This document shows, one piece after another, positions 2,186-62,749 of a stretch of DNA of 64,000 nt. The notes beneath the pieces were generated by a model. It saw nothing but the letters and a program-made list of their open reading frames with translations, was not told the DNA's origin and ran no database searches. Origin of the DNA: Aplysia californica. Taxonomy: Eukaryota. The stretch spans positions 287,037 through 351,036 of the forward strand of contig NW_004797759.1 in the NCBI RefSeq assembly GCF_000002075.1. The letters run 5' to 3'. Every line of letters begins with the position of its first letter. The stretch's first letter is position 1. The translations under genes and the position numbers were made by a program.

Positions 2186-2332
2186 TGGCCAGCTCCCAAA
2201 TCCTCGACTGCAACTTCGACAAAGATTTTTGTTCATGGACGCAAGATACGACTGATCAAAAGGACTGGGCACGACAGGCCAACGGAACAGCTACTCAAGG
2301 GACAGGACCAAGCCAGGATCACACTTCTGGGC
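2186..2332 (+). CDS. Exon 1, MAM1 N-part ([18 protein letters not shown]...[10 protein letters not shown])
   Basis: ttcag acceptor, gtatgt donor, phase 1-1. Confidence 0.9.
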
Positions 2333-4798: not shown

Positions 4799-4835
<37 letters not shown>

Positions 4836-7108: not shown

Positions 7109-7156
<48 letters not shown>

Positions 7157-10100
7157 GGGTCAGGGAAGCTATTTATCAACTTTTGTCCCCTCACCCCCCC
7201 CAGCCTACCTTGATTTTCCATTTAAGAGACATTAGTTGAACTCAAGTTGGATTATTTTGTAGAAGATCAATCTGGTTAGTTTAGTTGTCTCACCTTTTGT
7301 AGTAAGTATGGCTAAAAAAAACAACCCATTATAATTATAGTCATGGAAAGGTGAAATCATGGCAAATGGAGTGCATGAAAATAGTAAAGAAAGTAATGAT
7401 ACAATGTCAGTTACCACTAATCACAGGGAACTGCCTCTACAAATTTAGTGCATCAGTATACCCGAGAAAGAGTAGATAAAGGGTACGAGGTATAACTTTT
7501 CTAAATTTGTTTGTATGAAATGGCTCTGTTTCTCAAAGAATGCCAGATTAAATGAAAATATAGTTTGGCATGCAGAGAGCAAAATTGATGGGATACAGTA
7601 ATTTTTTCATTATGTAAGAATTTTCTTTTACACACTGCACATGTTTTAAATACAAAGAAATGCATGCATCAGAAAAAATTCGAGATTTAAAAACATGATT
7701 GCTATGAGTGTGGCTATGTGAATGTTCATAATGAACAGGCACGGGCACACACATACACATTGTATGTGTGCTAGAATGCATTTCTGAGATTTTGGAAATT
7801 AACTGTTTCCAGACAGCTATGCAGAGTCATCTTAAGTATTTTCTTGTAAATGCTGAACTTTCCTCACACTGCACTTTTTCTTCAGCTGGATCATCTTCAA
7901 TCGCTTGTGATTTTGAGACTTCTAGTATTTGTGGATACAAATTTGACTCTGCGGGTAACTTCAACTGGACCTGGAGGGCTGGCTCTTTTCCTGCCACTGA
8001 CCACACGACTCAAACCGCCAGTGGTAAGTCATAGTGAAACATTTGTCTTTTCCTGTCACTGATCACACTACTCTTAGTTTTAGTAGAGGGCTTTACACCG
8101 CTCACAACTGCATAAGGTCATATGAGCGTCAAAGGGTGGGTGTCAACAGAAAAGTCTTTACAGGGAAATCAGACTTACTCTGCTCACCTCTCTAGCTTCA
8201 ACAGCACAAAGTGTGCTTTAACTATCAAGGCACCCCGAAAATAGCAGGTCACAAGAGTGTGACAAACGTACAAAAGAAGTAGAGGAAAATTACAATAGTA
8301 AGGATTAGGAAAGAAAAAGCAGCAGTTCCCTGTTGGAGATCAGGCACAGTTAGTTATGAGCGGGACTCACACTACTCCGTCAGTGGAAAGTAACAGTACT
8401 GATCCCACTACTCAAACCACAAATGGTAAGTAACAGACAAAAAACTTGTCTCCCCCCCACGGTACTGACCACATGACTCAAACCACCAATGGTAGGTCAG
8501 TAAAACACTTGTCTTTATGTTATTCTTCCGTCTCATTTCTTTGTTGTTGTTGTTTGTTTTTTAAATTTTACTTTTTTGACTGACACTTCCTTTGCGTCTG
8601 GTTAGGTAGTGGACTGACAAGAACAAAGTGTCTTCAACTCTTAGGTAGCGGAATTTATTTCTCTATTCAAGCCGTAGGGCTTGAACTCAGATACACAATC
8701 TTGAGTTGCCTTTTGTTAATGAATCGCAGATTTCAAAGTGTACTATACTCATGTAGTAACTTAAAAATTATTGTGGTACCAGATGGTGAAGAAAAGCAAA
8801 TGTAAGCAAAATTAGACTCAAACTTTGCTTCAAAATCTTTATTTTGAATGAAATAGAGTGACAATTTAACAATCTTTTCGTTTATTTTAACAACATGTTT
8901 AAATAAATTTTGCCAGGGCACTTTCTTGTGGCTCGCGTCTCTGGAACCAGAGGTAGGGCCCAGAGAGCGAAACTTGTTAGCCCCAGTTTTCCTCGATCGA
9001 GCAGTCAACGTTGCTTGCAGTTTTGGTATACCATACCTGGATCTACCGGAAGTCTAAGCGTAGTTGTTGGAAGTCCATCATCAACAGGGGTGTCTTGGTC
9101 AGGGCGATCACCAGTCAATACGTGGATGATTGGTCAAGTGAATATTCCGACAGGAAGTGGACAAATTCAGGTTTGTCATTTTGCTTGTTCTTTGGTAGGC
9201 ATCACTGCTACTTTAATTTAAAAAAATAATAGAATATTGTGGCGTTAGTGGCCTAGTGGTTAGGATCTTGGACATGCAATAAGAATGTCATGTGTTCGGA
9301 TCTTGTCAGGGACCCTACACTGTGTCTGTAGAAAAGGCTCTTTACACGACAAATTTTCCTCACTTCACCCAGGTACAAATACCTACTCGGATGTAGACAA
9401 AGAAAGATCTTGTCAGTTTTGTTAGTGTTTGAGTGCGTGCAATCTGCAGCTTGCAGCTTGCTCTGTATGTTTCCAGGAAAGCGAAGAATGTTTCTGAGTG
9501 TTCTAGGGTCTGCTGGGGTAATACGGGTTGTAAAGCACGTAGAACAAGCTGTAGAGCATGGATATGCGTTATGTAAATGCAATTATTATTATTGTTATCT
9601 GCAATCATCAACACACTTCTATATATAAAATACGTCATTAAATGTATGAAAGATACTGAAATTTTTAAAAGAGCTTTAGGAAACCAGATCATTCTCATTT
9701 ATTTCAAACTTTTCTTGCTTGATTTTTTTTGTTTGTTTGCTCTTTTTGTGTCTGTCAATTGTCTGCTGTAAATGATTGTACAGCTCTCAGAGCTTTTTTC
9801 TTAAAGGGAAGGAGGTTTATATAATTGCTATTTAATATTATCATTTAAAACATTTCTTGTGAAAATGAAAAAAGAGCAGTGAGAATAGGGGGATGTAAGT
9901 CTCCTGTAATTATACTGATTCTATTTTGAGTGAATATCTTAGCAATTAATTAAATGCAAATGAGCTGATTTCTGTTTGGAAATTACTTGCTCTTTTTGGA
10001 ATGATGTTCACTTTTGTGTATGTTTAGTGCTCTATTTCAAAATGATATGCATCTTTGTAATTCTTTTTGGGAATATATTATGCTTTTTGTGCCTGTTCAG

Positions 10101-13100
10101 GACTGGTGTACACTTTTGTGCTTTATGTGAGAATGCTTTGCATTGTTAAGCTCAATTTTGAAATCATATAGGTTTGTGTGCTCTATCAGAGAATGATGTA
10201 TTTTTTGGGGTGCTATATTTGGGACAGGCTTCTTTCACGGCTCAGATAGCACCCTTCGGAACAAGTGTTGTAGCAATAGATGATGTTTCCATCAGACCAG
10301 GACAATGCAGAGCAATTGGTAAGTTTAGTATTGTTCATCAGGAACAATTTGCATTTAATTTGACAATTTGCTACATGAAATGATAATTAGGTTTGAAATA
10401 TTTGTCTTTGCAATAGGTTTCTAAGACAGAGATGCTCGTATCGGTATGACTCCCTGCATTTTTAATACTATTGCAGAAAAATAATCATTGCTTTTAAGCA
10501 AGCTCTTTGTTTTAAAAAATTTGTTTTTTATTCTTCAAATTAACATTAATGCAGGCTCCATCTACATTTTGGTTTGAAAAATCATCTAGTGTAGTGACTC
10601 TTTATTCTTGTCAATTACATAGACTCACTTTTACTTTTTCATCCTCTGTTGCTGTTAAGCGTCGAGGGGAGATGCAGTTTTCTATGGTAGGTCAGCTCCA
10701 CAGCTCTTTCTTTCGATTGGAATATCACAATCATTGAAGTATTCCTTTATTATTGCAGGTTTTTGCGACTTCGAGAACAACGACTTTTGCCTGTATTCAA
10801 ATGACCCTGCTGATCAGTTTGACTGGATTGTCAGACAGGGTAGCACAGGGACTTATGGAACAGGGCCTTCTTCAGATTTCACATTTTCTAATAGCAGTGG
10901 TACGTACATATTTTTGAAAGACATACTTGCAAAATCTCCTTGTAGGTGAGACAAGTCGGAATTGAGTGCATCCTGGGAAAAGGGTATATTTTTCAGAAAT
11001 TCCAAATGCCTTTCTGATTTTCTTTTAAGATAACCTTTGCTTAATAATCCTGTCATACACGGCTGAGATATCTTTCTTACTTCTTTTTCTTTGTCTTTTT
11101 ATAAGTATAGACATGGCTATTATTGTAAGTCATGGTGAGTAACTATGGTTAGAAAAAGGAAATTACTAGTGAGTTTCCCTTTTTGCGTGTACTTAAAGAG
11201 TTGGATTTTGTCCTAGCAACATGAGACTTTATTTTCTCGTTTTTTTCTGTATCACCCAAAAGACATAGATTATACGAATCAAATCATGGTGGAATCAGAA
11301 GCTCCTCAAATTTTGGGCTTATAGAGTTCTTGGTATTGTCTTTAAGTTTGTTCATTTGTCTCTCTTCCGATGAAATTAATAAATACCAATGTATCTTGAA
11401 AAGAAATCTCGATATTTGCGATTGAAAGAGGTGGGGTTGCCTAGTACCAGAGGTAAGATTAGTGAGAAAATGGCTGCCAAATATTTTTCGTGCCTTTGAT
11501 CAACATTTTTCAGTAAAATCCACACAGAAATATGTTTCTGAAGGGACAGGAGAAATGTTGAGCCCCCCCCCCAAGATAAAAATTGCCTAACCGACAGCAA
11601 TACCTAGTACTCATTGGCACAATCGGTTTGTTTTAGTTTGGTAGGCAGGGCTAACCAGATTGAGGGCAAAGGAACAACTATATACATTTCGCTGCCAAGA
11701 GCGAAATGCTCGCAGCTAAAGGAATTTGAAAACAACAACAACGTATATGATGTAGCAGTTTTGAATCCAAAGTTGGAACACAAACAATGATTCATGAATA
11801 GAGGAAGGATAATTGTTGGTGGAGGTAACAGTCACTAAAATCTGTGTGCATTAGAAGCAGCAGGAGATGAATAGAAAGAAAAATCTTCAGCCATTAACCC
11901 ATCAAGCTTTGCTAACAAATAGCCTGTGGCGGCAGGGGAAATTTTAATCGAAACTGTCTGAGATGGTTATCCATAGTCGTGGTGAAAAGTGGACGTAAAT
12001 TTTACTCGGTGACATAATAATGTAAAAAAATATGCAAGGGGGTAAATAGGAAGGTGATTGTCTTATACTGGCGGCCATTAAGAGCAGGTTTGACTGTATA
12101 TGATTTCGCCACATCATGTTGGAAAATGCTTGAGAATAAACAAATAAGCAAGAAGAAGCCATAAACCTATACATTTTCAGAAAGTTGAATGTACTTTGGA
12201 AGTAAAGCTCATTTGTGAATATTCCAGTATTTTTTTCTTCTTCTGTGAACAGAGCACATACAGTAGACTTTAATTATATATTTTTTTAGCAGATTGTGTT
12301 AAATGAGTGCATATTGTCCCTAATTCCTCAGGTCACTACATATTCACGGATTCCGATCCTCCCAGAAAGCCTGGAGACTCTTCTCGACTGATCAGTACGT
12401 TGATTCCAGCAACTGGTGTTTCAAATTGTTTCAATTTTCGCTATAACATGCATGGCACAGATGTGGGAAGCCTTAATGTTTACCTCAAGAATGGTTCGGC
12501 GTCCTCTCTCGTGTGGACTCTTTCTGGAGACCAAGGGACTGGCTGGAAACTGGGCAGCTTTCCCATCCCAGGGACTTCCGGTACCGGCAACACATACCAG
12601 GTCAGTTCATTTGTGTGTGTTTTGAGTTCTGCCTCTTTGAATATTTAGACCAGCAGCTCATTTTCCACTCTGTTAGTGTGTAAAATAATAATAGTAATAA
12701 TAANNNNNNNNNNNNNNNNNNNNNNNNNNNNNNNNNNNNNNNNNNNNNNNNNNNNNNNNNNNNNNNNNNNNNNNNNNNNNNNNNNNNNNNNNNNNNNNNN
12801 NNNNNNNNNNNNNNNNNNNNNNNNNNNNNNNNNNNNNNNNNNNNNNNNNNNNNNNNNNNNNNNNNNNNNNNNNNNNNNNNNNNNNNNNNNNNNNNNNNNN
12901 NNNNNNNNNNNNNNNNNNNNNNNNNNNNNNNNNNNNNNNNNNNNNNNNNNNNNNNNNNNNNNNNNNNNNNNNNNNNNNNNNNNNNNNNNNNNNNNNNNNN
13001 NNNNNNNNNNNNNNNNNNNNNNNNNNNNNNNNNNNNNNNNNNNNNNNNNNNNNNNNNNNNNNNNNNNNNNNNNNNNNNNNNNNNNNNNNNNNNNNNNNNN

Positions 13101-15982: not shown

Positions 15983-16057
<75 letters not shown>

Positions 16058-16267
16058 NNNNNNNNNNNNNNNNNNNNNNNNNNNNNNNNNNNNNNNNNNN
16101 NNNNNNNNNNNNNNNNNNNNNNNNNNNNNNNNNNNNNNNNNNNNNNNNNNNNNNNNNCACCCCCCACCCCCCACCCCCGGGCCTATGTTGTGGCCGTCCC
16201 GTCTGGTAAGGGAACAAATCTAATTCATGGATGATCATAATCACATTCTGTTTGTTGCACCAATTCT

Positions 16268-16349
<82 letters not shown>

Positions 16350-16463
16350 GGATGAGTATTCATGGTGGAATACCTAATGTGCATAATATGCAAAACATAC
16401 TAAGCCTCTAAAAAGGGAAAAATAGATGAAAGGAGGAATTACATTTTATCTTCATCACCGATT

Positions 16464-16519
<56 letters not shown>

Positions 16520-23522: not shown

Positions 23523-23553
<31 letters not shown>

Positions 23554-34257: not shown

Positions 34258-34315
<58 letters not shown>

Positions 34316-42682: not shown

Positions 42683-42742
<60 letters not shown>

Positions 42743-49945: not shown

Positions 49946-49985
<40 letters not shown>

Positions 49986-50955
49986 ACATGTACACACGTG
50001 CACGCACATGACCACAAGTAGGCTTACAATCACATACATAATGTAAATGAGCAGCAATATAAACAATAATAATCGTAAGCTAGATACACACAATGTGATA
50101 TGTGAAGTGTGCTGGCAAAAGGAGCTACTTCTCAGATTCAAGTCTCATGTAAATACATCACGCTTATAGGTGAAGCTTTTACAATTTATGAGTATAAAAT
50201 AATGAAAGGCATGGTATAGTTTAAAAATATGGCATAAATAGAAAATCTACAAATTTGACCCAAGTGTCGATTTTTGGCCAATGTCTCAATTTGACCCAAG
50301 TGTTGATTTTTGGCCAATATCTCCATATGTGGATTGTGAGAAGCAACTAATTTTGTCAGCACACCTCACATATGTAGGCCTGCAATGTGTGTTTGGTGCA
50401 TCTATAATAATTTGAAGCTGTAGACGTTTTACCACACACCCACTGACCACAATTTAGATAATTTAGGCTGCTCATTTTAAGATGGGCTGCTTCAGCCCTG
50501 TCTGTCAGGGTCAGCCAGAGTAAAGAGGAATAGAGGGAGGGAAGGTTTGGATGAGGAGGAGGAGGAGGAGGAGGAGAATGACACACGTCCACAGAATTCT
50601 TGGCTCTTTGGGCGAGCCAGCCAAGTACATGTCATGTTGTTCTCAAACGCAATGTTGTGTTTTTTTATAACCTGTAACTATAACTTAGGGGAAGTGCAAA
50701 TTTTAGTTTCTTCAACTGACTGTATCAAACCACAGTGTTCACTTTACACATAATGATGACTCATAGCCATGACACTGAATCCACACTCATCTCTCACACA
50801 GGTGAGAAGCATTGGTAAAACTAAACCCACTGGGTTTTTCTTGTCTCTTTTTGCAGGTGATATTTGAAGGCAAAAGAGGAAGCAATTGGGATGGAGACAT
50901 CGCACTTGATGATATCACATTTGATGGTGCTGCTTCTTGCGATGGTACGTGTGCG

Positions 50956-50998
<43 letters not shown>

Positions 50999-53900: not shown

Positions 53901-56900
53901 CCCCGATCTTACCAATACCACGCGCTCAGAAGGCCGCGAGTGCCCGCAAGGCCGTGTTTACGCTACCTACTGATACTGTTTGGTTAGACCAGTCAGTGCT
54001 CACTACCTGCTGGTTGGTCATAGAAGTTACGATGCTTGATTTTGATTTTGTCACTTGGATACTGAAATCAGAGCATATTCATGTAACAAATTTAATGCTG
54101 AACATGCTGATTTTTTAAAATTTTAGAAGTATCCTGAGTAGTTTTAAAGGCATGCCTCATTTTGTAACACTGAATGTTAAAACAAAGTTTGGTGAAAAAC
54201 CAAATTTCTAGCTTATTTTATAATCTTTGATGAAGTACATGTACAACACGTTGCAAAAATAACTAATTAAAAATATTTAGACTTAAAGTAGTATAAATCC
54301 TTTCAATATGTTAGTAAGCAATGGTAAAACATGTTTTTTCTGATGGAACTTAATTTTTTAACCAGCTATGACTTTTGTTGCCCATTCACCCTGTTGCTCA
54401 AAAATAACTGTGCTGACTACTTGGACCTTTCTCCAGGCACACTCACTAATTTTTCAATATTTTGTTTAGGTTCCTTAACTTGGTTTTGGCATGTCAAGGT
54501 CCCCAAAAAACTGTGTGGTGGTTGGATGTTTGTTCGAAACTCTGATCTGTTTGAAGATGGTGTCAGATTGTCTTGTAATATGTCTCTGGATATTATTTGA
54601 CTAGAATTGATGAAATGTGTTGGCCTAAGATCACAAGTATAAAAAAGATCAACAGCTTTGTAAACGACCCATCACACCCCCTTTCCAGACAAATTGTAAG
54701 ATGACGCAGATATGTACCTCTAAATACAAAGATAGAAAGATGCTAAAAATATCTCTTGCCATTTTGGTTATTACTGTCAGAATAAACATCAATGTGTATT
54801 GCTTTTTTGAGTATGTATCTATATAACTGTAAAGGTCTTGTAATTAAATTCCTGCATGTGGTTGAAAGATGCATCTGATGTTAAATGTACTTTTTGTCAG
54901 CTTTACTTTCTTTTCGTATTGAATTTTTATGAGAGTAATATATCATTTAATTTGTATGTATACCTGCATGACATTGTGTTTTTAGGGTCCTGTAGAGTCA
55001 AGAACAAAGTTCCTCTGGGACAATAAAGTAATATCTTATCTTATCTTATCTGATTTTGTATGGTCCTATCTCATCTTAGCATATCTTATCTTATCTTATC
55101 TTACTTTATCTTATCTAATGACCAAGACACGTCTATGTTCTGCTAGATGTGTGGGCTCATGAAGAAGCTGAGTCATATGTGAGGCATTGTAGTGGAATAA
55201 AAGAAAATGGAATTTTTCCAGCAGATTTAACAGTTTCTATCAAATTTTTGTCTTTTGTTTTTCGGCTCATCACCTTTTATGTTCATTTGAGAACACATTT
55301 CTGTGTTGATTTTACTGAAAAATGTCGATAAAAGGTGTCAAAATATAAGTTTTCAGTTTTTAAGGATTCTCAAGCTATTGAACTCACCAAACTTTGGTGG
55401 CCATTTTATCTATAATTTTACCCCTGAAACTGAGTGACCCCCTGCCTCATTCAATCATGAATATCTCGACTTCTATTCAAGATAGATGGTTTTTTTTTCA
55501 TTCAAAGCAAGAAAAATGAACGCGCTACACGCCTCATGATGATATCAATAACTCCATAAGGCCAAAAACTGACGAGAGTCTGATTTTATTGTGTCATGAC
55601 ATATATACTCAACACTGGTGCCGGTATAGCGCCTGCGATTTTCGGACAGGCAGTTGTGAAACTTGTTAAAGTAATTGTGTCACGACGCAGTGGAATCAGG
55701 TTCTCATCAATGTTTGGGGATGTGGAGTTATTGATATCATCTTAAAGCTTGTTCATTTTCTTGCTTTTGATGAAAAAATATCCATCTATTGGCCTATAGA
55801 TATTGAATAGAAGTCAAGATATTTATGCTTGAAGGAGGTGAGGGTCGCATAATTTCAGAGGTAAAATTATGAAGAAAATTGCCACCTAAGTTTGGTGAAT
55901 TTTATAGCTTGAGAGTCCTCAGAAACAGAAAATTTACATTTCTGTGCCTTTAATCAATGTTTTTTCAAAAAAATCCGCTCAGAATTGTGTTTTAAATCAA
56001 CTTAAAAGTTGTTGAGCCAGAAAACAAATTTCATTAAAAATTGCCAAAATGGCAGAATATGCCGATTTCTTCGATTACATTTTTCAGACGTGTGCCTAAT
56101 TTCATGATGCTGACTCAAAATTTTTAAAGTCTGTATAGGTGTTAGTTTTTTGTTCTACAATGAAAAGTTGTGCTCTTTGTGATATCACTTTGTTTCATTA
56201 TTTTTTTGGAAATTATTCTTTTTATGTTTGGGCTCGGGTAATATATTAACTCATTAACATGTAGGCCTATTTTTATAACAGGTCAAAGCGTCTCTTGTGA
56301 CTTTGAGTCCAACACTTGTGGATGGTCTCAGAACCAAAATGATGACTTTGACTGGAGGAGGAACACATATGGGACATCTTCTACTAGCACAGGTCCAACA
56401 AGAGATCACACGACTGGTAGGTTAAAGAAGTTTATAATCCAGAGTTGACCCACATCAAGATATGGTGTAATTATTATTATTATCTATTAATAATTAATTA
56501 ATTAATTAATTAATTAATTAATTAATTAATTAATTAATTAATTAATTAATTAATTAATAATGATAAATAATAAGTAGCATTTATATAGCATATGTCCCCA
56601 CCCAACAGCAAAGCTCTCTGCCGTTTGAAATCTATAATATATCCCCAGCAGGTCCTAAAACCCTCAAAAAACGTTCTCAGTTTCTTGGGAGGCATAAGGA
56701 TAATGATAGTAGTAATGATGACGATAATATTAATAATAATAGTAATGGAAATAATTCATTTAGTGCATAANNNNNNNNNNNNNNNNNNNNNNNNNNNNNN
56801 NNNNNNNNNNNNNNNNNNNNNNNNNNNNNNNNNNNNNNNNNNNNNNNNNNNNNNNNNNNNNNNNNNNNNNNNNNNNNNNNNNNNNNNNNNNNNNNNNNNN

Positions 56901-59900
56901 NNNNNNNNNNNNNNNNNNNNNNNNNNNNNNNNNNNNNNNNNNNNNNNNNNNNNNNNNNNNNNNNNNTCGTAAACTGTCTGTGGTGTTAGAATCTATAATT
57001 ATGACAATTTCTTTGGGGAAGGAATTCCAAATTTTAGGGACCTAAGAAGAAAAATCTCTTTCACTCCGCTTATTTAATTTTACAGTGGGTACTTTCATGA
57101 GATTACCATCTGCAGATCTCAGATATCTTGATGGCACACTCAGTTAGACCTTTAGGATATTGTGGGGCCTTATTGTTCATTCATTTGTGACATGTGTGTC
57201 GTGATTCAGTGGAATCAGGAGTTTGTCAATTTTTGGGCATGTGGAATTATTGATATCATTTGAAAGCTGATTTATTCGCCTTTATTCCAGTGAAATAAAT
57301 ATCCATTTATCTTGAATAGAATTCAAGATATTTGCGATTGAAGGAAGTGAGGTTGCCTGGTTTCAATGCTAAAATTAGCGAGAAAATAGCCGTCAAAGTT
57401 TGGTAACTCCAATAGCTAAAGAGGCTTTGAAAACAGCAAAATGACATATTTTATGCCTTTCATCAATGTTTTTCAGTAAAATTTACATTGAAATGTATTT
57501 TTATATGGACCTTAAAGAGGTTAAGGCAAAAAATAAAAATTCGATAAAACTTTCCAAACTGCTGGAAAAATGCCTTTTTCTCAAATTTCGTTAGTTTGAC
57601 GAGTGCCTGATTTCACCACGCTGTCTCACATATATGTCATCTGCAGATCTCAAATATCTTGTTGGCATATATATATATATATATGACTCAATTGTATATG
57701 ACTCTATTAAGATATTGTGGTACCTTGTTGTTTATGCATTTGTCACATAAAAGAACTATTCTATAATCAATTCTTGCTTTTACTGGTAGCCAGTGTAACT
57801 TTATCAATAAATGTGTTATGTGTTGTTTTGGGGATTTTTTAAAGACAAAATGCGCAGCTCTCTTTTGTAGCTACTGCAGTCTGTTAGTCATTTTCAAACT
57901 TAAATTGGCAAGGAGAGAATTACAGTAATCAATATAGTGCTTGCTGCAGGTTACACATGATAAAACACTATCTGATGAAATCTTTCACAGTCTATTACAA
58001 TTACCACCTGAATGAAATGAGGAAAATACGTGTAAAGTGCCTTTCTCAGGGACACAACATTAAGCCCCTGACGGAGTTTGAACCCACAACCTTTTAGTTG
58101 TGAACCCAACAGCCTAACCACTAGACCACCGCCATTAGAGGGGGTGGGATAAATTAACTCATTCGCTACGTATTATTTTCGGCTTGTGGACGAATTTTTT
58201 TTGGGAGGGCGAAATGAGATGATGACTAGTGCACAGTTCACAGGTCCTTGGGGCCATAAATTCAAGTAAATATCAACATATTATATACCAACATTTTCAG
58301 TATGGTTTGTAGAATACATCTGTATTGTTTATTTGCGTATTTTTCAACTTTGGTTCCTGTAAGAGGCAATTATGCAACACAATTGTGATTGGCTGCGGAT
58401 AAAATTTGAAAATAAAAAATTAATAATCTCAGGTGAAACTCTAAAAATATGTTTGCACCTAGTCAAATGATGCATCAAAATAACCATAACTGTATATAGA
58501 ACAGGAAAATATTGAAAAAAGTGCAGTTATTTACATACATTCCATAATATTTGTACATTTGGATCATAACATCCGATATTGAAATAAAAAATAATTTTAA
58601 AAATAATTTTGAAAAAGGATCACAAACGGAAAAAAACACTCGTATCTTATATGGAATTATTCAGAATTGCATTTGAAATAAACCTATACATGTCTTGAGT
58701 GGTACTTTTTGAGTACTTTCCCCAAAAAGTAGTGATTTTGGCGATAAAAAAATATTTTGACTATTTAGCTCTAGGCCTTGATCTAGTACTCAAAAATATT
58801 GATTTCTCAATTACAGTACACTGGCAATTTGAGTTCAATAGTATCAATATTATAAAGAAGAGTCCTACATTTCTTAAGTGAGCAAAATAATGATACATTT
58901 TGTTGTGTAAAAGTACTAAGATTGAAGTCTTGGCTATAATTTGGGTTTCGCGATAAAACAATGTCGCATAAACTTCGAAATCGTGTTTCAAAACTGAATC
59001 AAAACTTCCGATTTTCGATGGAAACGCTTGACCCTGAATTCAACATTATATTGTGACCTTTATTTTAACATGGATATGTGGATTGGAATAGAAACCAAGC
59101 TAAAATTGAACGTCGGTTCTCGAGCCGCCGGGGGCGGCTTAGCGTACTGACGGCACTTTAGCCGCCCCCCCCCCCACAGCTCAGCGTAGCGAATGAGTTA
59201 AACAGAAGGGTGTTCATATTGACAAATTTGACGATGTTTGTTTGACGGTTTATTGAAAAAGATGTCAAAAAGATCAAATTATTGCTCTTTAGATGGGTCC
59301 TCTTTTTTAAAATAATTTTTTTTAGACACAGATTAGATAATGCGTCTGGATAATGATATTATATTGTTCATATATTTGTCCGCAGGATTTGGCTATTACA
59401 TGTACATTGAAACCAGTTCTTACAACTATGGCGATAAAGCAGTTTTAACTAGTGCACAAATTTCAAGGCCTACAGGTTCAACAAAGTGTTTCTCAATGTG
59501 GTATGTAATAATGAGATTGTCTAAACAATTGAAGACCTGAGAGCAACAACAAGGTTAAGTCACATTTTCCTAAAAATAGAGATCTGCATGTCATCCGACA
59601 AAGGACTATCTATTAGTAGCACTGGCAAAGCGCTATTCTCTTCCTAGGTCCAGTTATTCTTGTCCAAAAATGCAAAGGCTAAATGCAACAGCAAGGTCAA
59701 GTCCAATAAAAAGTCTTTTTAAGCCCTCTGATCGGAACCATCTTGAATGTGTTTCACGAATTAGGTTTTTGGCTCATTTTCCGGAAATCAACTAAATGTG
59801 ACTTGACCTTGGTGTTTTTCTCAGGTCTTCAATTTTGTACGTTACACATGTTTTTTCCTTCCCCCTCTTGTGTCGACAGTGTTTAATCTTGTTCTTTTAT

Positions 59901-62749
59901 GCCTTATAACCTAGACAGGAGAACATTTATAGCCTTATGGAAATATACAAGAATGTATAATAATTATCAAAAGTATTTTGTTAACTTTTGTGGATTTTTG
60001 GAAAAAACGGGAAACAATCAAAATTCGAATTTAGACTGCATGGTTTGAGGGCACCAGTAATAAGTTCCCCTTCTTTCCTTTCTTGCTGTTGATTCTGTCT
60101 ATATGTTTTGTGTTTTCTAAACTTGAAACGACCTTTTTTTAAATGTATTTACATTCTTCCTTTTACAAAGAAAAGTAAGGACCCAAACATAATAAGGTTT
60201 ACAGTGCTGGAAGAATTATAGATGTACAGGAAGCTTCTTCTAAACTTTGTAGCATTATTCCATTACAAGGCTTTCTTAATTATGTAATGTAAAGTAATTG
60301 TCACTTTACAATCATTTGTTAATGATTTTGCAAGCTGATTAGTCCCTTTTTAGTTTCCTTATTAATGATATTACACGTTTTTTTTTCTTTTTTTCCTCGT
60401 TCTCGATATTGCATGTAATATTTGTCCCTTTACAGTTTGTGTTGATGAGGTTACGTATATTGTCCATTTTTCATGATTTGTTAATGATGTTACATGTAAT
60501 AATTCTCCATTTTTGATGATTTGTTAATGGTATTCCACTTGTAATATTTGTCCATTTTCACTGACTTGTAAAGATATGTCGTAGAGTATTTTACCTTTTT
60601 CTCAATGATATTGCCTATAGTATTTGTCCCCTTTCAGTATATTGACTCAGTAATATTGCGTTTAGTATTTAACCTTAATCTGTGGTTTCTTAATCTTGTT
60701 ACAGGTATTCTATGTATGGAGCTTCGGTGAATGAACTTAAAGTGTCCACCGTGTCATCTGGCTCACGGAATACAATTTGGGTTAAGCATGGGAACCAAGG
60801 TCCTGGGTGGAAAAAGATTACATATGATCTGGATAATTCTGCTCCTACACAGTTCACGGTTGGTTCCTTTTTGACACTTTCACTATATTTNNNNNNNNNN
60901 NNNNNNNNNNNNNNNNNNNNNNNNNNNNNNNNNNNNNNNNNNNNNNNNNNNNNNNNNNNNNNNNNNNNNNNNNNNNNNNNNNNNNNNNNNNNNNNNNNNN
61001 NNNNNNNNNNNNNNNNNNNNNNNNNNNNNNNNNNNNNNNNNNNNNNNNNNNNNNNNNNNNNNNNNNNNNNNNNNNNNNNNNNNNNNNACACACACACTCA
61101 TGCAAGNNNNNNNNNNNNNNNNNNNNNNNNNNNNNNNNNNNNNNNNNNNNNNNNNNNNNNNNNNNNNNNNNNNNNNNNNNNNNNNNNNNNNNNNNNNNNN
61201 NNNNNNNNNNNNNNNNNNNNNNNNNNNNNNNNNNNNNNNNNNNNNAGGTTTAGGTGTTGGCCTCTCATTCAAAGGTCCCGGGTTCGATTCCGGGTAGCGA
61301 CCAAAACATTTTCTTCTCTAAAATTGTCTCCTTTCACATCCTTTCCTGATCTCTAACAATGTTCTGTTGTCTGCTTTCATTTCCACTTTCTGCCCCCACC
61401 CCCTCACCTCCTTTGCCCCCTCCTCTGGGCTCCTGACTCTTTCTGCAGCCTTTCTACTGCTACTCCTTGGTTCCTCCTAACTGCTGTCTTTCTGCCACAC
61501 CCCTGATCTTCTGGTAGGAAAGATCTACACGTAGCCTTCTTGGACAAGGGCGAAAAATCTCGGAGGGCCTGTGTGCAAGTTGCGCACGTTAAAGATCCCT
61601 TGGTGGTCTAAAATCGATAAGAGTAGGCTTCGGCTGCCACCCGAGCAAAATTCAAAATTTCCTACCAACTGAAAATATTAGGAGTGTCCCGCGCGCTCAT
61701 ATGACCTATGCAGTTGCGAGCGCCATAAAACCCTTTACAAAAAAAAACAAAAAAACACACACACACACACACACACACGCACGCCAACACATACAAACAC
61801 ACACACTTATNNNNNNNNNNNNNNNNNNNNNNNNNNNNNNNNNNNNNNNNNNNNNNNNNNNNNNNNNNNNNNNNNNNNNNNNNNNNNNNNNNNNNNNNNN
61901 NNNNNNNNNNNNNNNNNNNNNNNNNNNNNNNNNNNNNNNNNNNNNNNNNNNNNNNNNNNNNNNNNNNNNNNNNNNNNNNNNNNNNNNNNNNNNNNNNNNN
62001 NNNNNNNNNNNNNNNNNNNNNNNNNNNNNNNNNNNNNNNNNNNNNNNNNNNNNNNNNNNNNNNNNNNNNNNNGTGTGTACATATATATTTATGAATGAGC
62101 TTTTCCCAAAAGGTGGGGGCTTCATGAGGGTTAATGAGGCCAAAAATAAACGTTGATCAGTGAGTCCGCTTAAACTAAACGCAGTTAACCTAAAAACAGT
62201 GGTAAATTGTAAAGAACAATAAAATCCCCAATTTTTAAACTTCTATTTGAGCAGCCATTCTAAACTGAAAACTCGGCTAAATAAAAAATAATTTGGTGGT
62301 CCCACAGATTTCATTTTAAGTGGACTCCACTGTATATATATATAAAATGCACAGTTGAAGTTGTCTAAAACGGCCATTCATTATAAAGGAGAAAAACTGT
62401 TGTTTTAAACAGATAGACATCTTACACAGTGTCATTATAATGTAAACATTTATAAAAGGGAGGGAATGGGGAGTGGTTGTTTATACTGATGATTGTCTAC
62501 TGCAGGTGGCTGTTATAGTAGGATAGAGTGTATATTATATGGCTTATAAGTCGTTTTTATGAAAATGAATTCACTTTGAAAATTCTTGTATTCTATGTGC
62601 ACATTTTATGTATAAATTTAAATAGTTTGGTTATTTTTCTGCCCTTCTGATTTCTCTTTAACAGCTTGAGATCTCTGCAACTCAAGGCACTTCCTTTACA
62701 GGAGATATTGCTATTGATGACATTCAACTCTCTGATGGAGATTGTGCAG
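2186..62749 (+). CDS. Partial multi-exon gene: extracellular tandem MAM-domain protein (10 MAM domains + S/T/P linkers; MALRD1/MAM-LDLa-family-like), 37 exons, 5' and 3' ends outside window
   Basis: Repeated MAM motifs CxFD/E..C.W, DW.R..G.T....TGP..DHT, GYY.Y.E.S, CL.FWYHMYG, W...G.QG..W, GDIAIDD...C. All exons have AG/GT ends and compatible phases; joined length 5277 nt with no stop. Confidence 0.93.
2475..2703. mobile_element. TTAA-type (piggyBac-like) MITE, family CCCTATCCG, copy 1
   Basis: TTAA|CCCTATCC ... CGGATAGG; similar to 15635-15858 (inverted) and 42331-42570. Confidence 0.75.
2857..3102 (+). mobile_element. tRNA-derived SINE with (ACTTT)n tail, 13-bp TSD
   Basis: Box A-like GGCATAGTGG, box B-like GGTTCGTGCC; TSD TATCT(A/T)GATCTGT at 2844-2856 and 3103-3115; truncated second copy at 3427-3511. 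Confidence 0.7.
3739..3892 (+). CDS. Exon 2, MAM1 (GYYAYLETS...[19 protein letters not shown])
   Basis: gcag / gtaaga, phase 1-2. Confidence 0.92.
4366..4790. mobile_element. ~430-bp non-autonomous DNA element family A, copy 1 (other copies about 11284-11545, 17425-17862, 37670-38090, 39615-40055, 46195-46850, 55177-55600, 55676-56118, 57195-57630)
   Basis: Shared blocks GTGGAATCAGG, ATCTTGAATAGAAGTC.AGATATT, AGCTTGAGAGTC, CTGATTTCACCA; imperfect TIRs; both orientations. Confidence 0.75.
4986..5079 (+). CDS. Exon 3, MAM1 ([31 protein letters not shown])
   Basis: ctag / gtaagt, phase 2-0; not in ORF track; W..G.Q..W motif. Confidence 0.88.
5603..5782. mobile_element. MITE, TIR CTGTCCC(C), 6-bp TSD, copy 1
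   Basis: CATTAC|CTGTCCC ... GGGGACAG|CATTAT; homologous to 31101-31277. Confidence 0.75.
5815..6190 (+). mobile_element. I-group/Ingi-like LINE 3' end with (CAT)n tail; shorter second copy at about 5425-5565
   Basis: [12 protein letters not shown]...CRRC....EDVKH...CP matches the non-LTR ORF2 C-terminal CCHC knuckle; about 130 bp duplicated. Confidence 0.6.
6583..6673 (+). CDS. Exon 4, MAM1 C-part ([30 protein letters not shown])
   Basis: ccag / gtgaga, phase 0-1; GDIAIDD. Confidence 0.92.
7886..8023 (+). CDS. Exon 5, MAM2 N-part ([13 protein letters not shown]...[10 protein letters not shown])
   Basis: ttcag / gtaagt, phase 1-1. Confidence 0.9.
8074..8366 (-). mobile_element. Retroposon (SINE-like family B) with perfect 11-bp TSD; second copy at about 38150-38425
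   Basis: TSD TCACACTACTC at 8063-8073 and 8367-8377; tail CGCTCATATGACCTTATGCAGTTGTGAGCG. Confidence 0.8.
8917..9170 (+). CDS. Exon 6, MAM2 middle (HFLVARVS...CLQFWY...QIQ)
   Basis: ccag / gtttgt, phase 1-0. Confidence 0.88.
9239..9592 (+). mobile_element. tRNA-derived CORE-type SINE, diverged copy
   Basis: Colinear with 22260-22611. Confidence 0.85.
10228..10318 (+). CDS. Exon 7, MAM2 C-part ([30 protein letters not shown])
   Basis: acag / gtaagt, phase 0-1; AIDD..C. Confidence 0.85.
10759..10899 (+). CDS. Exon 8, MAM3 N-part ([12 protein letters not shown]...GTGPSSDFT)
   Basis: gcag / gtacgt, phase 1-1. Confidence 0.9.
12332..12600 (+). CDS. Exon 9, MAM3 middle (HYIFTDS...[10 protein letters not shown]...GDQGTGW...TYQ)
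   Basis: tcag / gtcagt, phase 1-0. Confidence 0.92.
13600..13820 (-). mobile_element. RTE-clade LINE 3' fragment
   Basis: Translates [15 protein letters not shown]. Confidence 0.6.
13842..13926 (+). CDS. Exon 10, MAM3 C-part ([28 protein letters not shown])
   Basis: acag / gtaagg, phase 0-1. Confidence 0.9.
14646..14735 (+). CDS. Exon 11, Ser/Thr/Pro-rich linker ([29 protein letters not shown])
   Basis: aag / gtaagt, phase 1-1, 90 nt, mucin-like composition. Confidence 0.75.
15288..15422 (+). CDS. Exon 12, MAM4 N-part ([13 protein letters not shown]...[11 protein letters not shown])
   Basis: acag / gtaagg, phase 1-1. Confidence 0.92.
15635..15858. mobile_element. TTAA-type MITE, family CCCTATCCG, copy 2 (inverted)
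   Basis: CCCTATCCGTAC ... GTACGGATAGGG|TTAA. Confidence 0.8.
15983..16519. repeat. Microsatellite cluster (TCTG)n, (CT)n, (CAT)n
   Basis: Direct reading. Confidence 0.9.
16581..16619 (-). ncRNA. Degenerate minimal type I hammerhead ribozyme motif (Penelope-type), copy 1
   Basis: Minus strand GTTC-TTGATGA-A-GCCCT-TTAC-AGGGC-GAAA-CGTT-GAAC: stems I and II, GAAA and palindromic AACGTT intact; C3 is T. Confidence 0.6.
16793..16830 (-). ncRNA. Degenerate minimal hammerhead motif, copy 2
   Basis: Minus strand TGTTC-CTGAAGA-A-ACCC-ATAA-GGGC-AAGA-CATT-GAATA: CUGANGA intact, GAAA mutated. Confidence 0.45.
18100..18194 (+). CDS. Exon 13, MAM4 ([31 protein letters not shown])
   Basis: tcag acceptor; donor after 18194 or 18188 (both phase 0). 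Confidence 0.85.
18582..19952. mobile_element. hAT-type DNA transposon (mostly assembly gap)
   Basis: TIR CAG(G/T)GGCGGTT(T/C)GT; perfect 8-bp TSD ATTGTTCT at 18574-18581 and 19953-19960. Confidence 0.8.
20385..20714. mobile_element. TTAA-type MITE
   Basis: TTAA|CTCTTTCACTAC ... GTAGTGAAGGAG|TTAA. Confidence 0.75.
21510..22259. repeat. Diverged tandem duplication, unit about 395 bp
   Basis: GCAATAA...GAAAGGGAATTAGA...TTTCAGACCTAG...TGTCAAGCT blocks at about 21518 and 21913; second unit interrupted by a SINE. Confidence 0.7.
22260..22611 (+). mobile_element. Full-length tRNA-derived CORE-type SINE with L2-like tail
   Basis: Box A TGGCCTAGTGG, box B GGTTCGAATCC, CORE-like TGTGTCCTTGGGAAAGGCACTTTAC...CCTCAC...AATGGG, tail TGTAAAGCGC...GCGCTATACAAAT(TAT)n. 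Confidence 0.9.
23080..23235 (+). mobile_element. Short retroposon family E (other copies about 26625-26868 and 34625-34915)
   Basis: Shared GGTGCTCT..TGTGGTTTGC, TAACACCTCTAATCTT.GGCACTT...AAGTGCCGTAAA..ACTTACT. Confidence 0.65.
23264..23428 (+). CDS. Exon 14, MAM4 ([10 protein letters not shown]...[11 protein letters not shown]...SSYR)
   Basis: gcag / gtgagt, phase 0-0. Confidence 0.92.
23925..24305 (+). mobile_element. Nin/Deu-domain-like SINE, 5'-truncated copy
   Basis: Colinear with 61247-61740. Confidence 0.75.
24651..24735 (+). CDS. Exon 15, MAM4 C-part ([28 protein letters not shown])
   Basis: tcag / gtaagt, phase 0-1. Confidence 0.92.
24958..25316 (+). mobile_element. CORE-type SINE, old diverged copy
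   Basis: Colinear with 22260-22611. Confidence 0.8.
25827..26033 (+). CDS. Exon 16, short linker + MAM5 N-part ([26 protein letters not shown]...[13 protein letters not shown])
   Basis: gtag / gtaaga, phase 1-1. Confidence 0.9.
26870..27312 (+). mobile_element. tRNA-derived Nin/Deu-domain-like SINE
   Basis: Box A TGGTCCAGAGG, box B GGTTCGAATCC, pyrimidine-rich body, GTCCCGTGTG...TAAAGGTCCCTTGG...TAAGAGTAGG block. Confidence 0.75.
27797..27954 (+). CDS. Exon 17, MAM5 (HYAFVDAS...[21 protein letters not shown])
   Basis: tcag / gtaact, phase 1-0. Confidence 0.9.
28544..29062. mobile_element. PIF/Harbinger (Tourist)-like MITE
   Basis: TAA|GGCCCCATTTACACGTACA ... TGTACATGTAAAGGGACCC|TAA; 3-bp TAA TSD. 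Confidence 0.7.
29204..29314 (+). CDS. Exon 18, MAM5 ([27 protein letters not shown]...SYQ)
   Basis: ccag / gtgaat, phase 0-0. Confidence 0.88.
29327..29997. mobile_element. Tc1/mariner (pogo/Tigger-like) MITE
   Basis: TA|CAGT... ...ACTG|TA termini with subterminal TCGAAC / TTCGAG motifs. Confidence 0.6.
30046..31088. mobile_element. ~1.04-kb TTAA-type (piggyBac-like) non-autonomous element, copy 1
   Basis: TTAA|CTCATTCG(G/C)TACG TIRs; colinear with 58158-59197. Confidence 0.88.
31101..31277. mobile_element. MITE, TIR CTGTCCCC, perfect 6-bp TSD, copy 2
   Basis: ACATAA|CTGTCCCC ... GGGGACAG|ACATAA. Confidence 0.8.
31869..31959 (+). CDS. Exon 19, MAM5 C-part ([30 protein letters not shown])
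   Basis: gcag / gtgagg, phase 0-1. Confidence 0.92.
32530..32664 (+). CDS. Exon 20, MAM6 N-part ([13 protein letters not shown]...[11 protein letters not shown])
   Basis: caag / gtcaca (weak donor), phase 1-1. Confidence 0.85.
33436..33603 (+). CDS. Exon 21, MAM6 (LYMFFTS...KAWLIS...CMSFWYFM...IRIP)
   Basis: tcag / gtcagt, phase 1-1. Confidence 0.88.
33619..34105 (-). mobile_element. CORE-type SINE with expanded (ATT)n tail
   Basis: Reverse complement of the 22260 family at about 33780-34105; tail expanded to about 170 bp of AAT repeats next to the exon 21 donor. Confidence 0.8.
34999..35196 (+). CDS. Exon 22, MAM6 C-part ([18 protein letters not shown]...VVFEG...[15 protein letters not shown])
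   Basis: ccag / gtaagt, phase 1-1. Confidence 0.88.
35610..36320. mobile_element. TTAA-type non-autonomous element
   Basis: TTAA|CACATTACAC ... GTGTTATGTG|TTAA with GC-rich subtermini. Confidence 0.65.
36561..36770 (+). CDS. Exon 23, P/T/Q-rich linker + MAM7 N-part ([37 protein letters not shown]...GDHTKSG)
   Basis: acag / gtaaga, phase 1-1. Confidence 0.9.
37301..37397 (+). CDS. Exon 24, MAM7 ([31 protein letters not shown])
   Basis: tcag / gtaagt, phase 1-2. Confidence 0.9.
38985..39141 (+). CDS. Exon 25, MAM7 (FYFNMNG...[12 protein letters not shown]...DFQ)
   Basis: tcag / gtaggc, phase 2-0. Confidence 0.9.
40634..40721 (+). CDS. Exon 26, MAM7 C-part ([29 protein letters not shown])
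   Basis: ccag / gtatgc, phase 0-1. Confidence 0.92.
41083..41288. mobile_element. TTAA-type MITE
   Basis: TTAA|CCTCTTCACTGCTGA ... TCAACAGTGAATGGG|TTAA. Confidence 0.65.
41528..41898 (+). mobile_element. 5'-truncated RNase H-containing non-LTR retrotransposon
   Basis: [16 protein letters not shown] (RNase H C-terminus), in-frame stop, CPVC end, (CAGGTAA)n tail, TSD TAATGGATG at 41519-41527 and 41899-41907. Confidence 0.78.
42143..42316 (+). CDS. Exon 27, short linker + MAM8 N-part ([23 protein letters not shown]...[14 protein letters not shown])
   Basis: tcag / gtaagc, phase 1-1. Confidence 0.92.
42331..42570. mobile_element. TTAA-type MITE, family CCCTATCCG, copy 3
   Basis: TTAA|CCCTATCCG ... 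CGGATTGGG|TTAA. Confidence 0.82.
43698..44165 (-). pseudogene. Tc1/mariner transposase C-terminal relic (frameshifted)
   Basis: [29 protein letters not shown] and terminal GGHTRY* motifs; a 45-bp piece recurs at about 42775-42820. Confidence 0.8.
44315..44530 (-). mobile_element. Non-LTR reverse transcriptase fragment (I/Ingi-like)
   Basis: [10 protein letters not shown]...MQLALD...W...W.VTVNKEKS (YADD-like catalytic region). Confidence 0.7.
44961..45161 (+). CDS. Exon 28, MAM8 ([21 protein letters not shown]...[10 protein letters not shown]...AWTRH)
   Basis: ttag / gtcaga, phase 1-1. Confidence 0.9.
45190..45570. repeat. Tandem repeat, about 128 bp x 3
   Basis: GGAGCATTATGACTTGCTGTATTCCCAGTT...TTATCTTACTG recurs at about 45217, 45345 and 45473. 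Confidence 0.85.
46365..46717 (-). mobile_element. Full-length CORE-type SINE nested in a family A element
   Basis: Near-identical reverse complement of 22260-22611; family A sequence resumes on both sides. Confidence 0.9.
46980..47160 (-). mobile_element. RTE-clade LINE 3' end with (TGA)n tail
   Basis: [16 protein letters not shown]...[16 protein letters not shown]. Confidence 0.75.
47182..47337 (+). CDS. Exon 29, MAM8 C-part ([11 protein letters not shown]...IVFEAVRG...[18 protein letters not shown])
   Basis: acag / gtaaat, phase 1-1. Confidence 0.92.
47606..47985 (-). mobile_element. L2-clade LINE 3' end
   Basis: [29 protein letters not shown] plus tail TGAAAAGCGCTCAGAGC...CGCTATATAAATGCAAT(TAT)n. 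Confidence 0.65.
48934..49074 (+). CDS. Exon 30, MAM9 N-part ([13 protein letters not shown]...[13 protein letters not shown])
   Basis: acag / gtgagg, phase 1-1. Confidence 0.92.
49580..49842 (+). CDS. Exon 31, MAM9 middle ([15 protein letters not shown]...[10 protein letters not shown]...QGTDW...SYQ)
   Basis: tcag / gtaaga, phase 1-0. Confidence 0.92.
50857..50944 (+). CDS. Exon 32, MAM9 C-part ([29 protein letters not shown])
   Basis: gcag / gtacgt, phase 0-1. Confidence 0.92.
52173..52283 (+). CDS. Exon 33, Ser/Thr/Pro-rich linker ([36 protein letters not shown])
   Basis: tcag / gtaatg, phase 1-1, 111 nt. Confidence 0.8.
54640..55118 (+). mobile_element. CR1-group (Rex1/Babar-like) LINE 3' end with (TATCT)n tail
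   Basis: NDPSHPL....RRY motif; GGACAATAAAG(TATCT)n tail, also seen at about 49849-49890 (-) and 51156-51190. Confidence 0.45.
56282..56416 (+). CDS. Exon 34, MAM10 N-part ([26 protein letters not shown]...TGPTRDHTT)
   Basis: acag / gtaggt, phase 1-1; not in ORF track. Confidence 0.9.
56486..56557. repeat. (TAAT)n microsatellite (self-complementary)
   Basis: Direct reading. Confidence 0.9.
57005..57960 (-). mobile_element. L2-clade LINE ORF2 relic interrupted by a family A element
   Basis: [22 protein letters not shown] and [17 protein letters not shown] motifs. Confidence 0.7.
58158..59197. mobile_element. ~1.04-kb TTAA-type non-autonomous element, copy 2
   Basis: Perfect 13-bp TIR CTCATTCGCTACG, TTAA on both sides. 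Confidence 0.9.
59386..59500 (+). CDS. Exon 35, MAM10 ([22 protein letters not shown]...KCFSM)
   Basis: gcag / gtatgt, phase 1-2. Confidence 0.9.
59531..59830. mobile_element. 300-bp MITE with about 37-bp TIRs and AATT flanks
   Basis: AATT|GAAGACCTGAGA...CAAGGT(T/C)AAGTCACATTT inverted at both ends. Confidence 0.75.
60285..60670. repeat. Degenerate minisatellite, unit about 40 bp
   Basis: Recurrent TGTAATATTTGTCC...GATTTGTTAATGAT. Confidence 0.6.
60705..60858 (+). CDS. Exon 36, MAM10 ([13 protein letters not shown]...[11 protein letters not shown]...QFT)
   Basis: acag / gttggt, phase 2-0. Confidence 0.88.
61247..61740 (+). mobile_element. tRNA-derived Nin/Deu-domain-like SINE with stem-loop tail
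   Basis: Box B GGTTCGATTCC; TTAAAGATCCCTTGG...TAAGAGTAGG; tail GCGCTCATATGACCTATGCAGTTGCGAGCGC. Confidence 0.8.
62158..62332. mobile_element. Small Tc1/pogo-like MITE
   Basis: CAGTGAGTCCGCTTAAA ... TTTAAGTGGACTCCACTG|TA. Confidence 0.6.
62665..62749 (+). CDS. Exon 37, MAM10 C-part ([28 protein letters not shown])
   Basis: acag / gtaaaa, phase 0-1; gene continues downstream. Confidence 0.9.

What the first reader, a model, noticed from the sequence alone, without database searches (positions are those of the whole stretch)
2186..62749. Giant MAM-only array built from a three-domain higher-order repeat
Seen: ten consecutive MAM domains with no LDLa, EGF or other module between them. Long S/T/P linkers follow MAM3, MAM6 and MAM9. 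Short linkers separate MAM1/2, 4/5 and 7/8. MAM2/3, 5/6 and 8/9 are fused directly (CRAIGFCDF, CPNPGTCAF, CAHPGNCNF). Known: MAM domains are extracellular adhesion modules, and vertebrate MALRD1 intersperses them with LDLa repeats. Inference: the repeat unit is [MAM-short-MAM-MAM-mucin-like hinge], giving an extended, O-glycosylated scaffold (mucus, adhesive or biomineral matrix candidate) in which linkers may have replaced LDLa modules.
Basis: partly seen in the sequence, partly recalled or inferred. Interest (0 to 1): 0.7.

Follow-up and report, generated by a model that had tools for sequence, protein, structure and literature searches.

The report
Giant 65-MAM membrane receptor, triplet-built
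The ten MAM domains are only the front end of one enormous sea-slug membrane protein (about 12,000 amino acids, 65 MAM domains, LDL-receptor modules further along) of the known MALRD1/MLRP2 family, built from an ancient three-domain repeat also found in corals, and it likely works as a giant ligand-capturing receptor that is taken up into the cell.

Summary
In detail: 37 exons at 2186-62749 encode ten MAM domains in [MAM-short link-MAM-MAM-S/T/P hinge] units, with no LDLa. The gene runs about 212 kb beyond the window. One spliced 36,177-nt contig joins the window's first exon to the transmembrane exon. The product is about 12,075 aa: a predicted signal peptide, 39 MAM domains in 13 triplets, 26 more MAM with 15 LDLa, an EGF-like domain, one transmembrane helix and two NPxY motifs. 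So it is not MAM-only, not primarily a secreted scaffold, and hinges sit beside LDLa rather than replacing them. It belongs to the known giant MAM-LDLa (MALRD1/Diet1, coral MLRP2) family; NCBI's model P0001 covers only its last third. The triplet is real but old and family-wide: a classifier trained on this species assigns the right triplet position to 182 of 247 domains in other animals, corals included. A same-genome paralogue keeps the 65-domain layout. I found no paper describing the triplet or the full length. Best guess: a giant endocytic or endosomal receptor of absorptive epithelia; function untested.

The parts
2186..6673 (+). MAM1 (triplet position A); exons 2186-2332, 3739-3892, 4986-5079, 6583-6673. 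The predicted signal-peptide exon lies upstream of the window (G000:C489:283703-283751).
   Evidence: model; RNA joints; signal exon (inferred)
7886..10318 (+). 9-aa link and MAM2 (B); exons 7886-8023, 8917-9170, 10228-10318
   Evidence: RNA joints; Pfam MAM on 8919-9170
10759..13926 (+). MAM3 (C), fused to MAM2 by 5 aa; exons 10759-10899, 12332-12600, 13842-13926
   Evidence: RNA joints; Pfam MAM on 12334-12600
14646..14735 (+). Hinge exon 1 (90 nt, phase 1-1, S/T/P-rich)
   Evidence: joint 14735-15288 and record arithmetic; no Pfam family
15288..24735 (+). MAM4 (A); exons 15288-15422, 18100-18194, 23264-23428, 24651-24735
   Evidence: first two exons RNA-joined
25827..31959 (+). 22-aa link and MAM5 (B); exons 25827-26033, 27797-27954, 29204-29314, 31869-31959
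   Evidence: model; paralogue exons of like size
32530..35196 (+). MAM6 (C); exons 32530-32664, 33436-33603, 34999-35196
   Evidence: model; paralogue exons 135/168/198 nt
36561..40721 (+). Hinge 2 (inside the first exon) and MAM7 (A); exons 36561-36770, 37301-37397, 38985-39141, 40634-40721
   Evidence: Pfam MAM from residue 28 of 36563-36769
42143..47337 (+). 16-aa link and MAM8 (B); exons 42143-42316, 44961-45161, 47182-47337
48934..50944 (+). MAM9 (C); exons 48934-49074, 49580-49842, 50857-50944
   Evidence: Pfam MAM on 49582-49842
52173..52283 (+). Hinge exon 3 (111 nt, phase 1-1, S/T/P-rich)
   Evidence: the paralogue has a 111-nt hinge exon at the same place
56282..62749 (+). MAM10 (A); exons 56282-56416, 59386-59500, 60705-60858, 62665-62749
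63926..64000 (+). Start of MAM11 (B); the gene continues to G000:C489:562804 (MAM11-65, 15 LDLa, EGF-like, TM, tail)

Best explanation
The window encodes MAM1-10 of a single ~12,075-aa membrane protein of the MALRD1/MLRP2 family (39 MAM in 13 hinged triplets, then 26 MAM with 15 LDLa, an EGF-like domain, one transmembrane helix and a tail with two NPxY motifs), which likely acts as a giant recycling receptor on the apical or endosomal membrane of absorptive epithelia. Shown here: the exon structure, one transcript contig from MAM1 to the transmembrane exon, the domain order, the conserved NPxY pair, and the age of the triplet. Inferred mechanism: the triplet array forms a jointed arm of probably semi-rigid three-domain blocks and O-glycosylated hinges, reaching a few hundred nanometres out (rough estimate from domain count); MAM surfaces and the membrane-proximal Ca2+-type LDLa modules would bind luminal proteins; the NPxY motifs would recruit clathrin adaptors (known role of NPxY in LDL-receptor-family tails, recalled) and carry receptor and cargo through endosomes, where the vertebrate relatives Diet1 and endotubin are found.
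For: One contig of run X6 (36,177 nt, depth 415.2) holds window 2185-2332 at record 237-384 and the end of the large 3' exon, the last LDLa exon and the exons through the transmembrane exon at record 35131-36177. Spliced model: 65 MAM and 15 LDLa positions. Length budget: observed 35,120 nt vs 34,016 modelled + 1,116 for four assembly gaps sized from the paralogue, residual 12 nt. [quoted passage not shown] Two NPxY motifs in P0001 and in amphioxus, abalone, Trichoplax and two spider homologues: 6 of 14 tails examined have two, 2 have one, 6 have none, some of them truncated models. Literature passages: Diet1 and endotubin are endosomal, MALRD1 is intestinal-epithelial (PMC4501364, PMC8804323); a coral MLRP2 antibody stains the larval stomodeum and gives dot-like signal in cultured cells (PMC11997738); two MLRP2-like genes mark one shrimp hepatopancreas cell cluster (PMC12902777).
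Against: No localisation, ligand or tissue data for this gene; the runs are coded and contig depth cannot rank tissues. Family members are also reported in coral skeletal matrix (PMC4890752), octopus skin mucus (PMC11431876), oyster ovary (PMC8353863) and coral neuroblast-like cells, which fits adhesion or shedding as well; name-based reports may refer to other MAM-LDLa paralogues. Rigidity of the triplet is weakly supported: predicted pTM 0.64 for A-B-C vs 0.57 for B-C-hinge-A, on shallow alignments. It lacks the YWTD propellers and tandem LDLa clusters of true LDL-receptor-family scavengers.
Confidence: 0.5

Rival explanations
1. A membrane-anchored adhesion or spacer molecule: the long MAM arm would bind MAM domains or matrix on a facing surface and tether epithelium to matrix, shell or neighbouring cells; NPxY would serve turnover or cytoskeletal linkage.
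For: MAM domains are described as mediating protein interaction and adhesion (PMC4501364); the coral homologue was found in skeletal organic matrix and discussed among cell-skeleton contact proteins (PMC4890752); a fixed domain count kept in two paralogues suits a ruler or spacer.
Against: Homologues occur in non-calcifying animals (Nematostella, Trichoplax, rotifer, tardigrade); vertebrate relatives are endosomal, not junctional at steady state.
Confidence: 0.2
2. A membrane-tethered glycocalyx or mucus component whose ectodomain is shed (closest to the first reader's idea).
For: S/T/P hinges of 18-43 aa; MAM-LDLa proteins in octopus skin mucus proteomes (PMC11431876).
Against: Hinges are short, not mucin domains; no secreted isoform was seen in the two stretches laid; the tail motifs are conserved.
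Confidence: 0.15
3. An intracellular sorting scaffold like Diet1: it would hold a secreted hormone or enzyme inside endosomal or secretory compartments and control its release rather than scavenge from the lumen.
For: MALRD1 binds and co-localises with FGF19 in an intracellular compartment (PMC8804323).
Against: A 39-domain distal arm seems far larger than needed for one cargo (inference); no cargo is known outside vertebrates.
Confidence: 0.13
4. The array and the LDLa-TM part are separate genes, as the NCBI model implies, and the long contig is a chimera.
For: P0001 starts at C489:524.5 kb; a contig is not a single molecule.
Against: P0001 starts in mid-MAM beside a 2.2-kb N stretch, with no signal peptide; domains are only about 24-50% alike, too different for mis-joining; the C200 paralogue is modelled continuously across this point; coral split models were likewise joined by cDNA.
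Confidence: 0.02

Closest known systems
[quoted passage not shown]
   Same: Long MAM array followed by MAM-LDLa repeats, EGF and a transmembrane segment; split into several gene models by annotation; the Nematostella 4465-aa protein (P0005) shows the same A-B-C triplets (13 of 14 positions called).
   Different: Longer (about 12,075 aa, 65 MAM); no fibronectin II, WSC, ricin or trefoil inserts were seen here; that paper's passages do not mention a triplet period.
Vertebrate MALRD1/Diet1 (nine MAM, nine LDLa, 236 kDa; PMC8804323)
   Same: MAM interspersed with LDLa in a membrane protein.
   Different: Has 9 MAM against 65 here, so no room for a 39-domain array; FGF19 link is untested outside vertebrates.
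Endotubin/MAMDC4 (PMC4501364)
   Same: Several MAM domains, single-pass, short tail with endosomal sorting motifs.
   Different: Far smaller; tail motifs were not compared here.
Lottia P0006 (4146 aa) and Nucella P0003 (4731 aa) database proteins
   Same: Start with a signal-peptide-like sequence, 24 and about 27 MAM in the same triplets with no LDLa, collinear with MAM1-24 of this gene (offset 0, z 11.3; offset about 0, z 10.5).
   Different: They end abruptly without a transmembrane segment: probably N-terminal fragments of orthologous giant genes (inferred).
Megalin/LRP2-type endocytic receptors (features recalled)
   Same: Very large single-pass protein with LDLa modules and NPxY motifs.
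   Different: No YWTD propellers or tandem LDLa clusters; MAM domains make up the body. Works-like comparison only, not membership.

Membership tests
[quoted passage not shown] | Tandem MAM domains | tested here: met
   65 MAM positions in the model; Pfam PF00629 on 4 of 4 MAM exons tested and 21 stretches in P0001
[quoted passage not shown] | LDLa domains interspersed with MAM in the same chain | tested here: met
   15 LDLa from MAM40 on (the first is divergent, 12.6 bits); same transcript contig as the window exons
[quoted passage not shown] | EGF-like domain, one transmembrane helix, short tail | tested here: met
   Six-cysteine EGF-like stretch, hydrophobic helix and tail read directly in P0001; exons RNA-joined. 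Pfam did not call the EGF at E 0.01, so EGF is by cysteine pattern only.
[quoted passage not shown] | N-terminal signal peptide | tested here: inconclusive
[quoted passage not shown] | Closest homologues belong to the family | tested here: met
   The top 32 of 43 long hits are multi-MAM proteins, many named MALRD1/2-like
Vertebrate MALRD1/Diet1 function | Endosomal location, FGF15/19 interaction | not testable with these tools
   Only literature passages for the vertebrate proteins
Secreted MAM-only proteins (MAMDC2 type) | Only MAM domains, no membrane anchor | tested here: not met
   LDLa, EGF-like and transmembrane parts on the same transcript
LDL-receptor family (LDLR/LRP/megalin) | YWTD propeller with EGF-precursor region and tandem LDLa clusters (definition recalled) | tested here: not met
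   Pfam finds only MAM and LDLa in P0001; LDLa are single between MAM
LDL-receptor family (LDLR/LRP/megalin) | NPxY motif in the tail (definition recalled) | tested here: met
   Two NPxY in P0001; 6 of 14 tails examined have two
Mucins | Long PTS tandem-repeat domain (definition recalled) | tested here: not met
   Hinges are 18-43 aa

The most novel reading that the evidence does not exclude
The MAM triplet is a structural super-repeat older than the cnidarian-bilaterian split, a fixed three-domain binding module, and these ~1.3-MDa proteins are an overlooked, ancient class of giant gut scavenger receptors of invertebrates, hidden because annotation splits them, of which vertebrate MALRD1 and endotubin are shortened remnants.
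Probability: 0.25. Interest if true: 0.7.

Novelty: new member of a known kind. Interest (0 to 1): 0.4.

Why it matters
It gives a transcript-supported full length for a family that databases hold mostly in fragments: about 12,075 aa, longer than the 8,388- and 8,714-aa members in the one comparative paper found. It shows that the family's outer half is a three-domain super-repeat with position-specific sequence signatures shared from corals to molluscs, a feature I did not find in print (searches). No solved structure covers tandem MAM domains, so one triplet is a tractable structural target. If the receptor reading is right, it names a candidate for ancient bulk uptake in invertebrate guts and an ancestral context for the bile-acid gene MALRD1.

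Tried and rejected
Tree of the window's ten domains alone: not significant (48 of 200 shuffles as low). No triplet class forms a supported clade in the 38-domain tree (2 of 35 inner branches starred, bootstrap not settled); C domains are less alike among themselves (29.6%) than to A or B (about 31.7%). The classifier does poorly on some homologues: tardigrade 5 of 15 and 7 of 12, sea urchin 0 of 3, spider and krill 2 of 6 each. The first best-match table was biased by a partial domain and was redone with a length filter. A single-exon homologue search gave 1 uninformative hit. No RNA holder is on record as RNA; raw polyA run X23 showed none of the gene's joints: no evidence either way on tissue. 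Predicted micro-exons (window 16826-16831 and four more downstream) were dropped: the first is skipped by an RNA joint; three lay next to N stretches or at frame breaks and two near C489:500.8-501.0 kb were dropped to keep frame. No MAM exon was found in 100 kb upstream. AlphaFold2 of triplet vs hinge-spanning control: pTM 0.64 vs 0.57, hinge pLDDT under 50; suggestive only. Fold search: single MAM domains and unrelated beta-sandwich proteins, best query TM 0.45. Three look-ups of earlier findings returned nothing. PMC12549020 and PMC7853314 had no whole-word MAM mention. The original Diet1 paper was not held.

Full report
Observation. The window is G000:C489:287037-351036. A spliced profile alignment (own script; MAM and LDLa profiles built from the homologues) gives 37 AG..GT exons from 2186 to 62749 in one open frame, encoding ten four-cysteine MAM domains; MAM11 starts at 63926. 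Contigs of runs X6, X2 and X7 splice these exons at GT..AG ends: 11 of the 12 joints among exons 1-13 are listed, and the record coordinates of exons 1-13 match the model to the base. Those joints cross five of the window's twelve N stretches. A six-frame LDLa scan finds nothing above background in the window (best 8.8 bits).

The whole gene. MAM exons continue on the + strand to about C489:555 kb, and LDLa matches begin near 499.6 kb. One contig of run X6, 36,177 nt at depth 415.2, holds window 2185-2332 at record 237-384 and the end of the large 3' exon at 35131-35355, then the last MAM, last LDLa, EGF-like, stalk and transmembrane exons. The same 3' joints appear in X5, X9 and X12. A contig is not one molecule, but the domains are only about 24-50% alike, which makes mis-joining unlikely. 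From the first window exon to the end of the large exon the contig has 35,120 nt; the model has 34,016 nt plus four assembly gaps that the paralogue sizes at 1,116 nt: residual 12 nt, far less than one LDLa exon (compensating errors cannot be excluded). With the predicted 49-nt signal exon and the 3' exons the coding length is 36,228 nt by my arithmetic, about 12,075 aa (one search printed one base less through an off-by-one at the last exon). Order: 39 MAM in 13 triplets; then LM-LM-hinge-LM, two triplets, the same block again, then LM pairs; 65 MAM and 15 LDLa in all; EGF-like, S/T/P stalk, transmembrane helix, tail with two NPxY. Five MAM domains are incomplete in the assembly. The NCBI model P0001 (4187 aa, labelled Aplysia californica, MALRD2-like) covers only the last third and starts in mid-domain.

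Paralogue. A second gene on C200 (about 1,106-907 kb, minus strand) has 65 MAM in the same order with mostly the same exon sizes. For 58 of 65 positions the best match is the same-numbered domain, at 28-72% same-number identity (four of the seven misses went to a partial domain that biased the score). The array therefore predates the duplication and is not being homogenised.

Is the triplet real? In the ten window domains the signal is weak. Over MAM1-39, within-position identity is 34.9% against 33.2% (0 of 5000 permutations), with peaks at lags of 3, 6, 9 and 15. A 38-domain tree (MAM28 left out as too short) needs 6 label changes against 18.4 shuffled (0 of 200), with few supported branches. 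Leave-one-position-out classification gives 53 of 73 correct, against a shuffled mean of 23.2 and maximum of 36 in 100 shuffles. Applied to linker-defined triplets in 21 homologues it gives 182 of 247: Pocillopora 12 of 12, Nematostella 13 of 14, Lottia 22 of 23, Nucella 18 of 19, Trichoplax 5 of 6, rotifer 19 and 20 of 24, but tardigrade 5 of 15 and 7 of 12, sea urchin 0 of 3. A 245-domain tree needs 31 changes against 116 (0 of 200); orthologous domains are not independent, so this overstates the case. Lottia P0006 and Nucella P0003 are collinear with MAM1-24. The triplet is thus ancient and family-wide, and LDLa-free triplet arrays of 23-29 MAM already sit in databases as fragments. Hinges of 17-25 aa stand directly before LDLa in the 3' half, so hinges did not simply replace LDLa.

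How it likely works. Shown: architecture, single transcript contig, conserved NPxY pair (6 of 14 tails with two), LDLa with acidic D-x-S-D-E-type motifs. Inferred: a jointed arm of semi-rigid triplets (AlphaFold2 pTM 0.64 for A-B-C vs 0.57 across a hinge, hinge disordered; weak) that binds luminal proteins and cycles through endosomes by NPxY-adaptor binding (role recalled). Literature seen as passages: endotubin and Diet1 are endosomal (PMC4501364); MALRD1 has nine MAM and nine LDLa, is intestinal and binds FGF19 intracellularly (PMC8804323); coral MLRP2 stains stomodeum and neuroblast-like cells (PMC11997738, abstract and passages; the antibody could not be checked by blot); shrimp hepatopancreas cluster marker (PMC12902777); MAM-bearing trypsins were proposed to dock on MAM receptors in sea anemone gut (PMC6733828). 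Against or neutral: coral skeleton matrix (PMC4890752), octopus mucus (PMC11431876), oyster ovary (PMC8353863), snail immune network hub (PMC8791074). Reports by name may concern other paralogues. I put 0.5 on the receptor reading.

Comparison with what is known. The family and its giant size are in print: Acropora 8388 aa, Lottia 8714 aa, Nematostella 4465 + 5014 aa as split models (PMC4890752, passages and the text of S12 Fig; the drawing itself could not be seen and may show the triplet spacing). Ten library searches (listings, with passages read in eleven papers) showed no description of the triplet, of this gene's full length or of the twin NPxY; subscription papers are mostly outside the library. 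PDB holds only single-MAM matches (16 sequences, one stretch each). It is a member of the MAM-LDLa family, not of the LDL-receptor family, MAMDC2 type or mucins.

Verdict. Observation confirmed; interpretation partly supported. New, unusually complete and very large member of a known family, with an apparently undescribed family-wide super-repeat. Interest 0.4.

Noticed in passing
G000:C489:544565-553927 (L020:3529 to L021:2891): One 9,363-nt exon carries about 16 MAM and most LDLa domains, while the 5' part uses 3-4 exons per MAM; the paralogue has the same region in two exons of 5,960 and 3,373 nt. Looks like 3'-biased intron loss before the duplication (inferred).
   Followed up: partly
G000:C200:about 907000-1106100, minus strand (L036-L057): Full paralogue with 65 MAM in the same order and its own predicted signal exon near 1106090.
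   Followed up: yes
MAM40-57 of the model; MAM1-39: Larger periods on top of the triplet: a nine-MAM block (LM-LM-LM, triplet, triplet) occurs twice, and secondary collinearity peaks at offsets of 9 and 15 domains suggest old block duplications.
   Followed up: partly
L003:4919-5917, minus strand (intron): 333-aa open frame with Tc1/mariner-type transposase domains (DDE_3, HTH_Tnp_Tc3_2).
   Followed up: partly
L007:6860-8017, minus strand (intron): 386-aa open frame with a reverse-transcriptase domain (RVT_1), likely a LINE fragment.
   Followed up: partly
window about 22278-22391, 25016-25120, 63370-63540: Copies of one short interspersed repeat in introns, seen as near-identical translations; many repeat-derived reads pile on introns.
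   Followed up: no
window about 620-670: A few TAACCC (telomere-like) units upstream of the first exon.
   Followed up: no
G000:C15 (about 2.0-2.09 Mb), C644/C2176, C14, C47, C66, C379: Further MAM-domain loci in the genome, some with LDLa nearby; not modelled.
   Followed up: no
P0002 and P0005 (cnidarian homologues): About 118-123-aa inserts between MAM domains of a triplet; one is a ricin-type lectin domain in P0002, and P0005 has fibronectin II and WSC matches.
   Followed up: no
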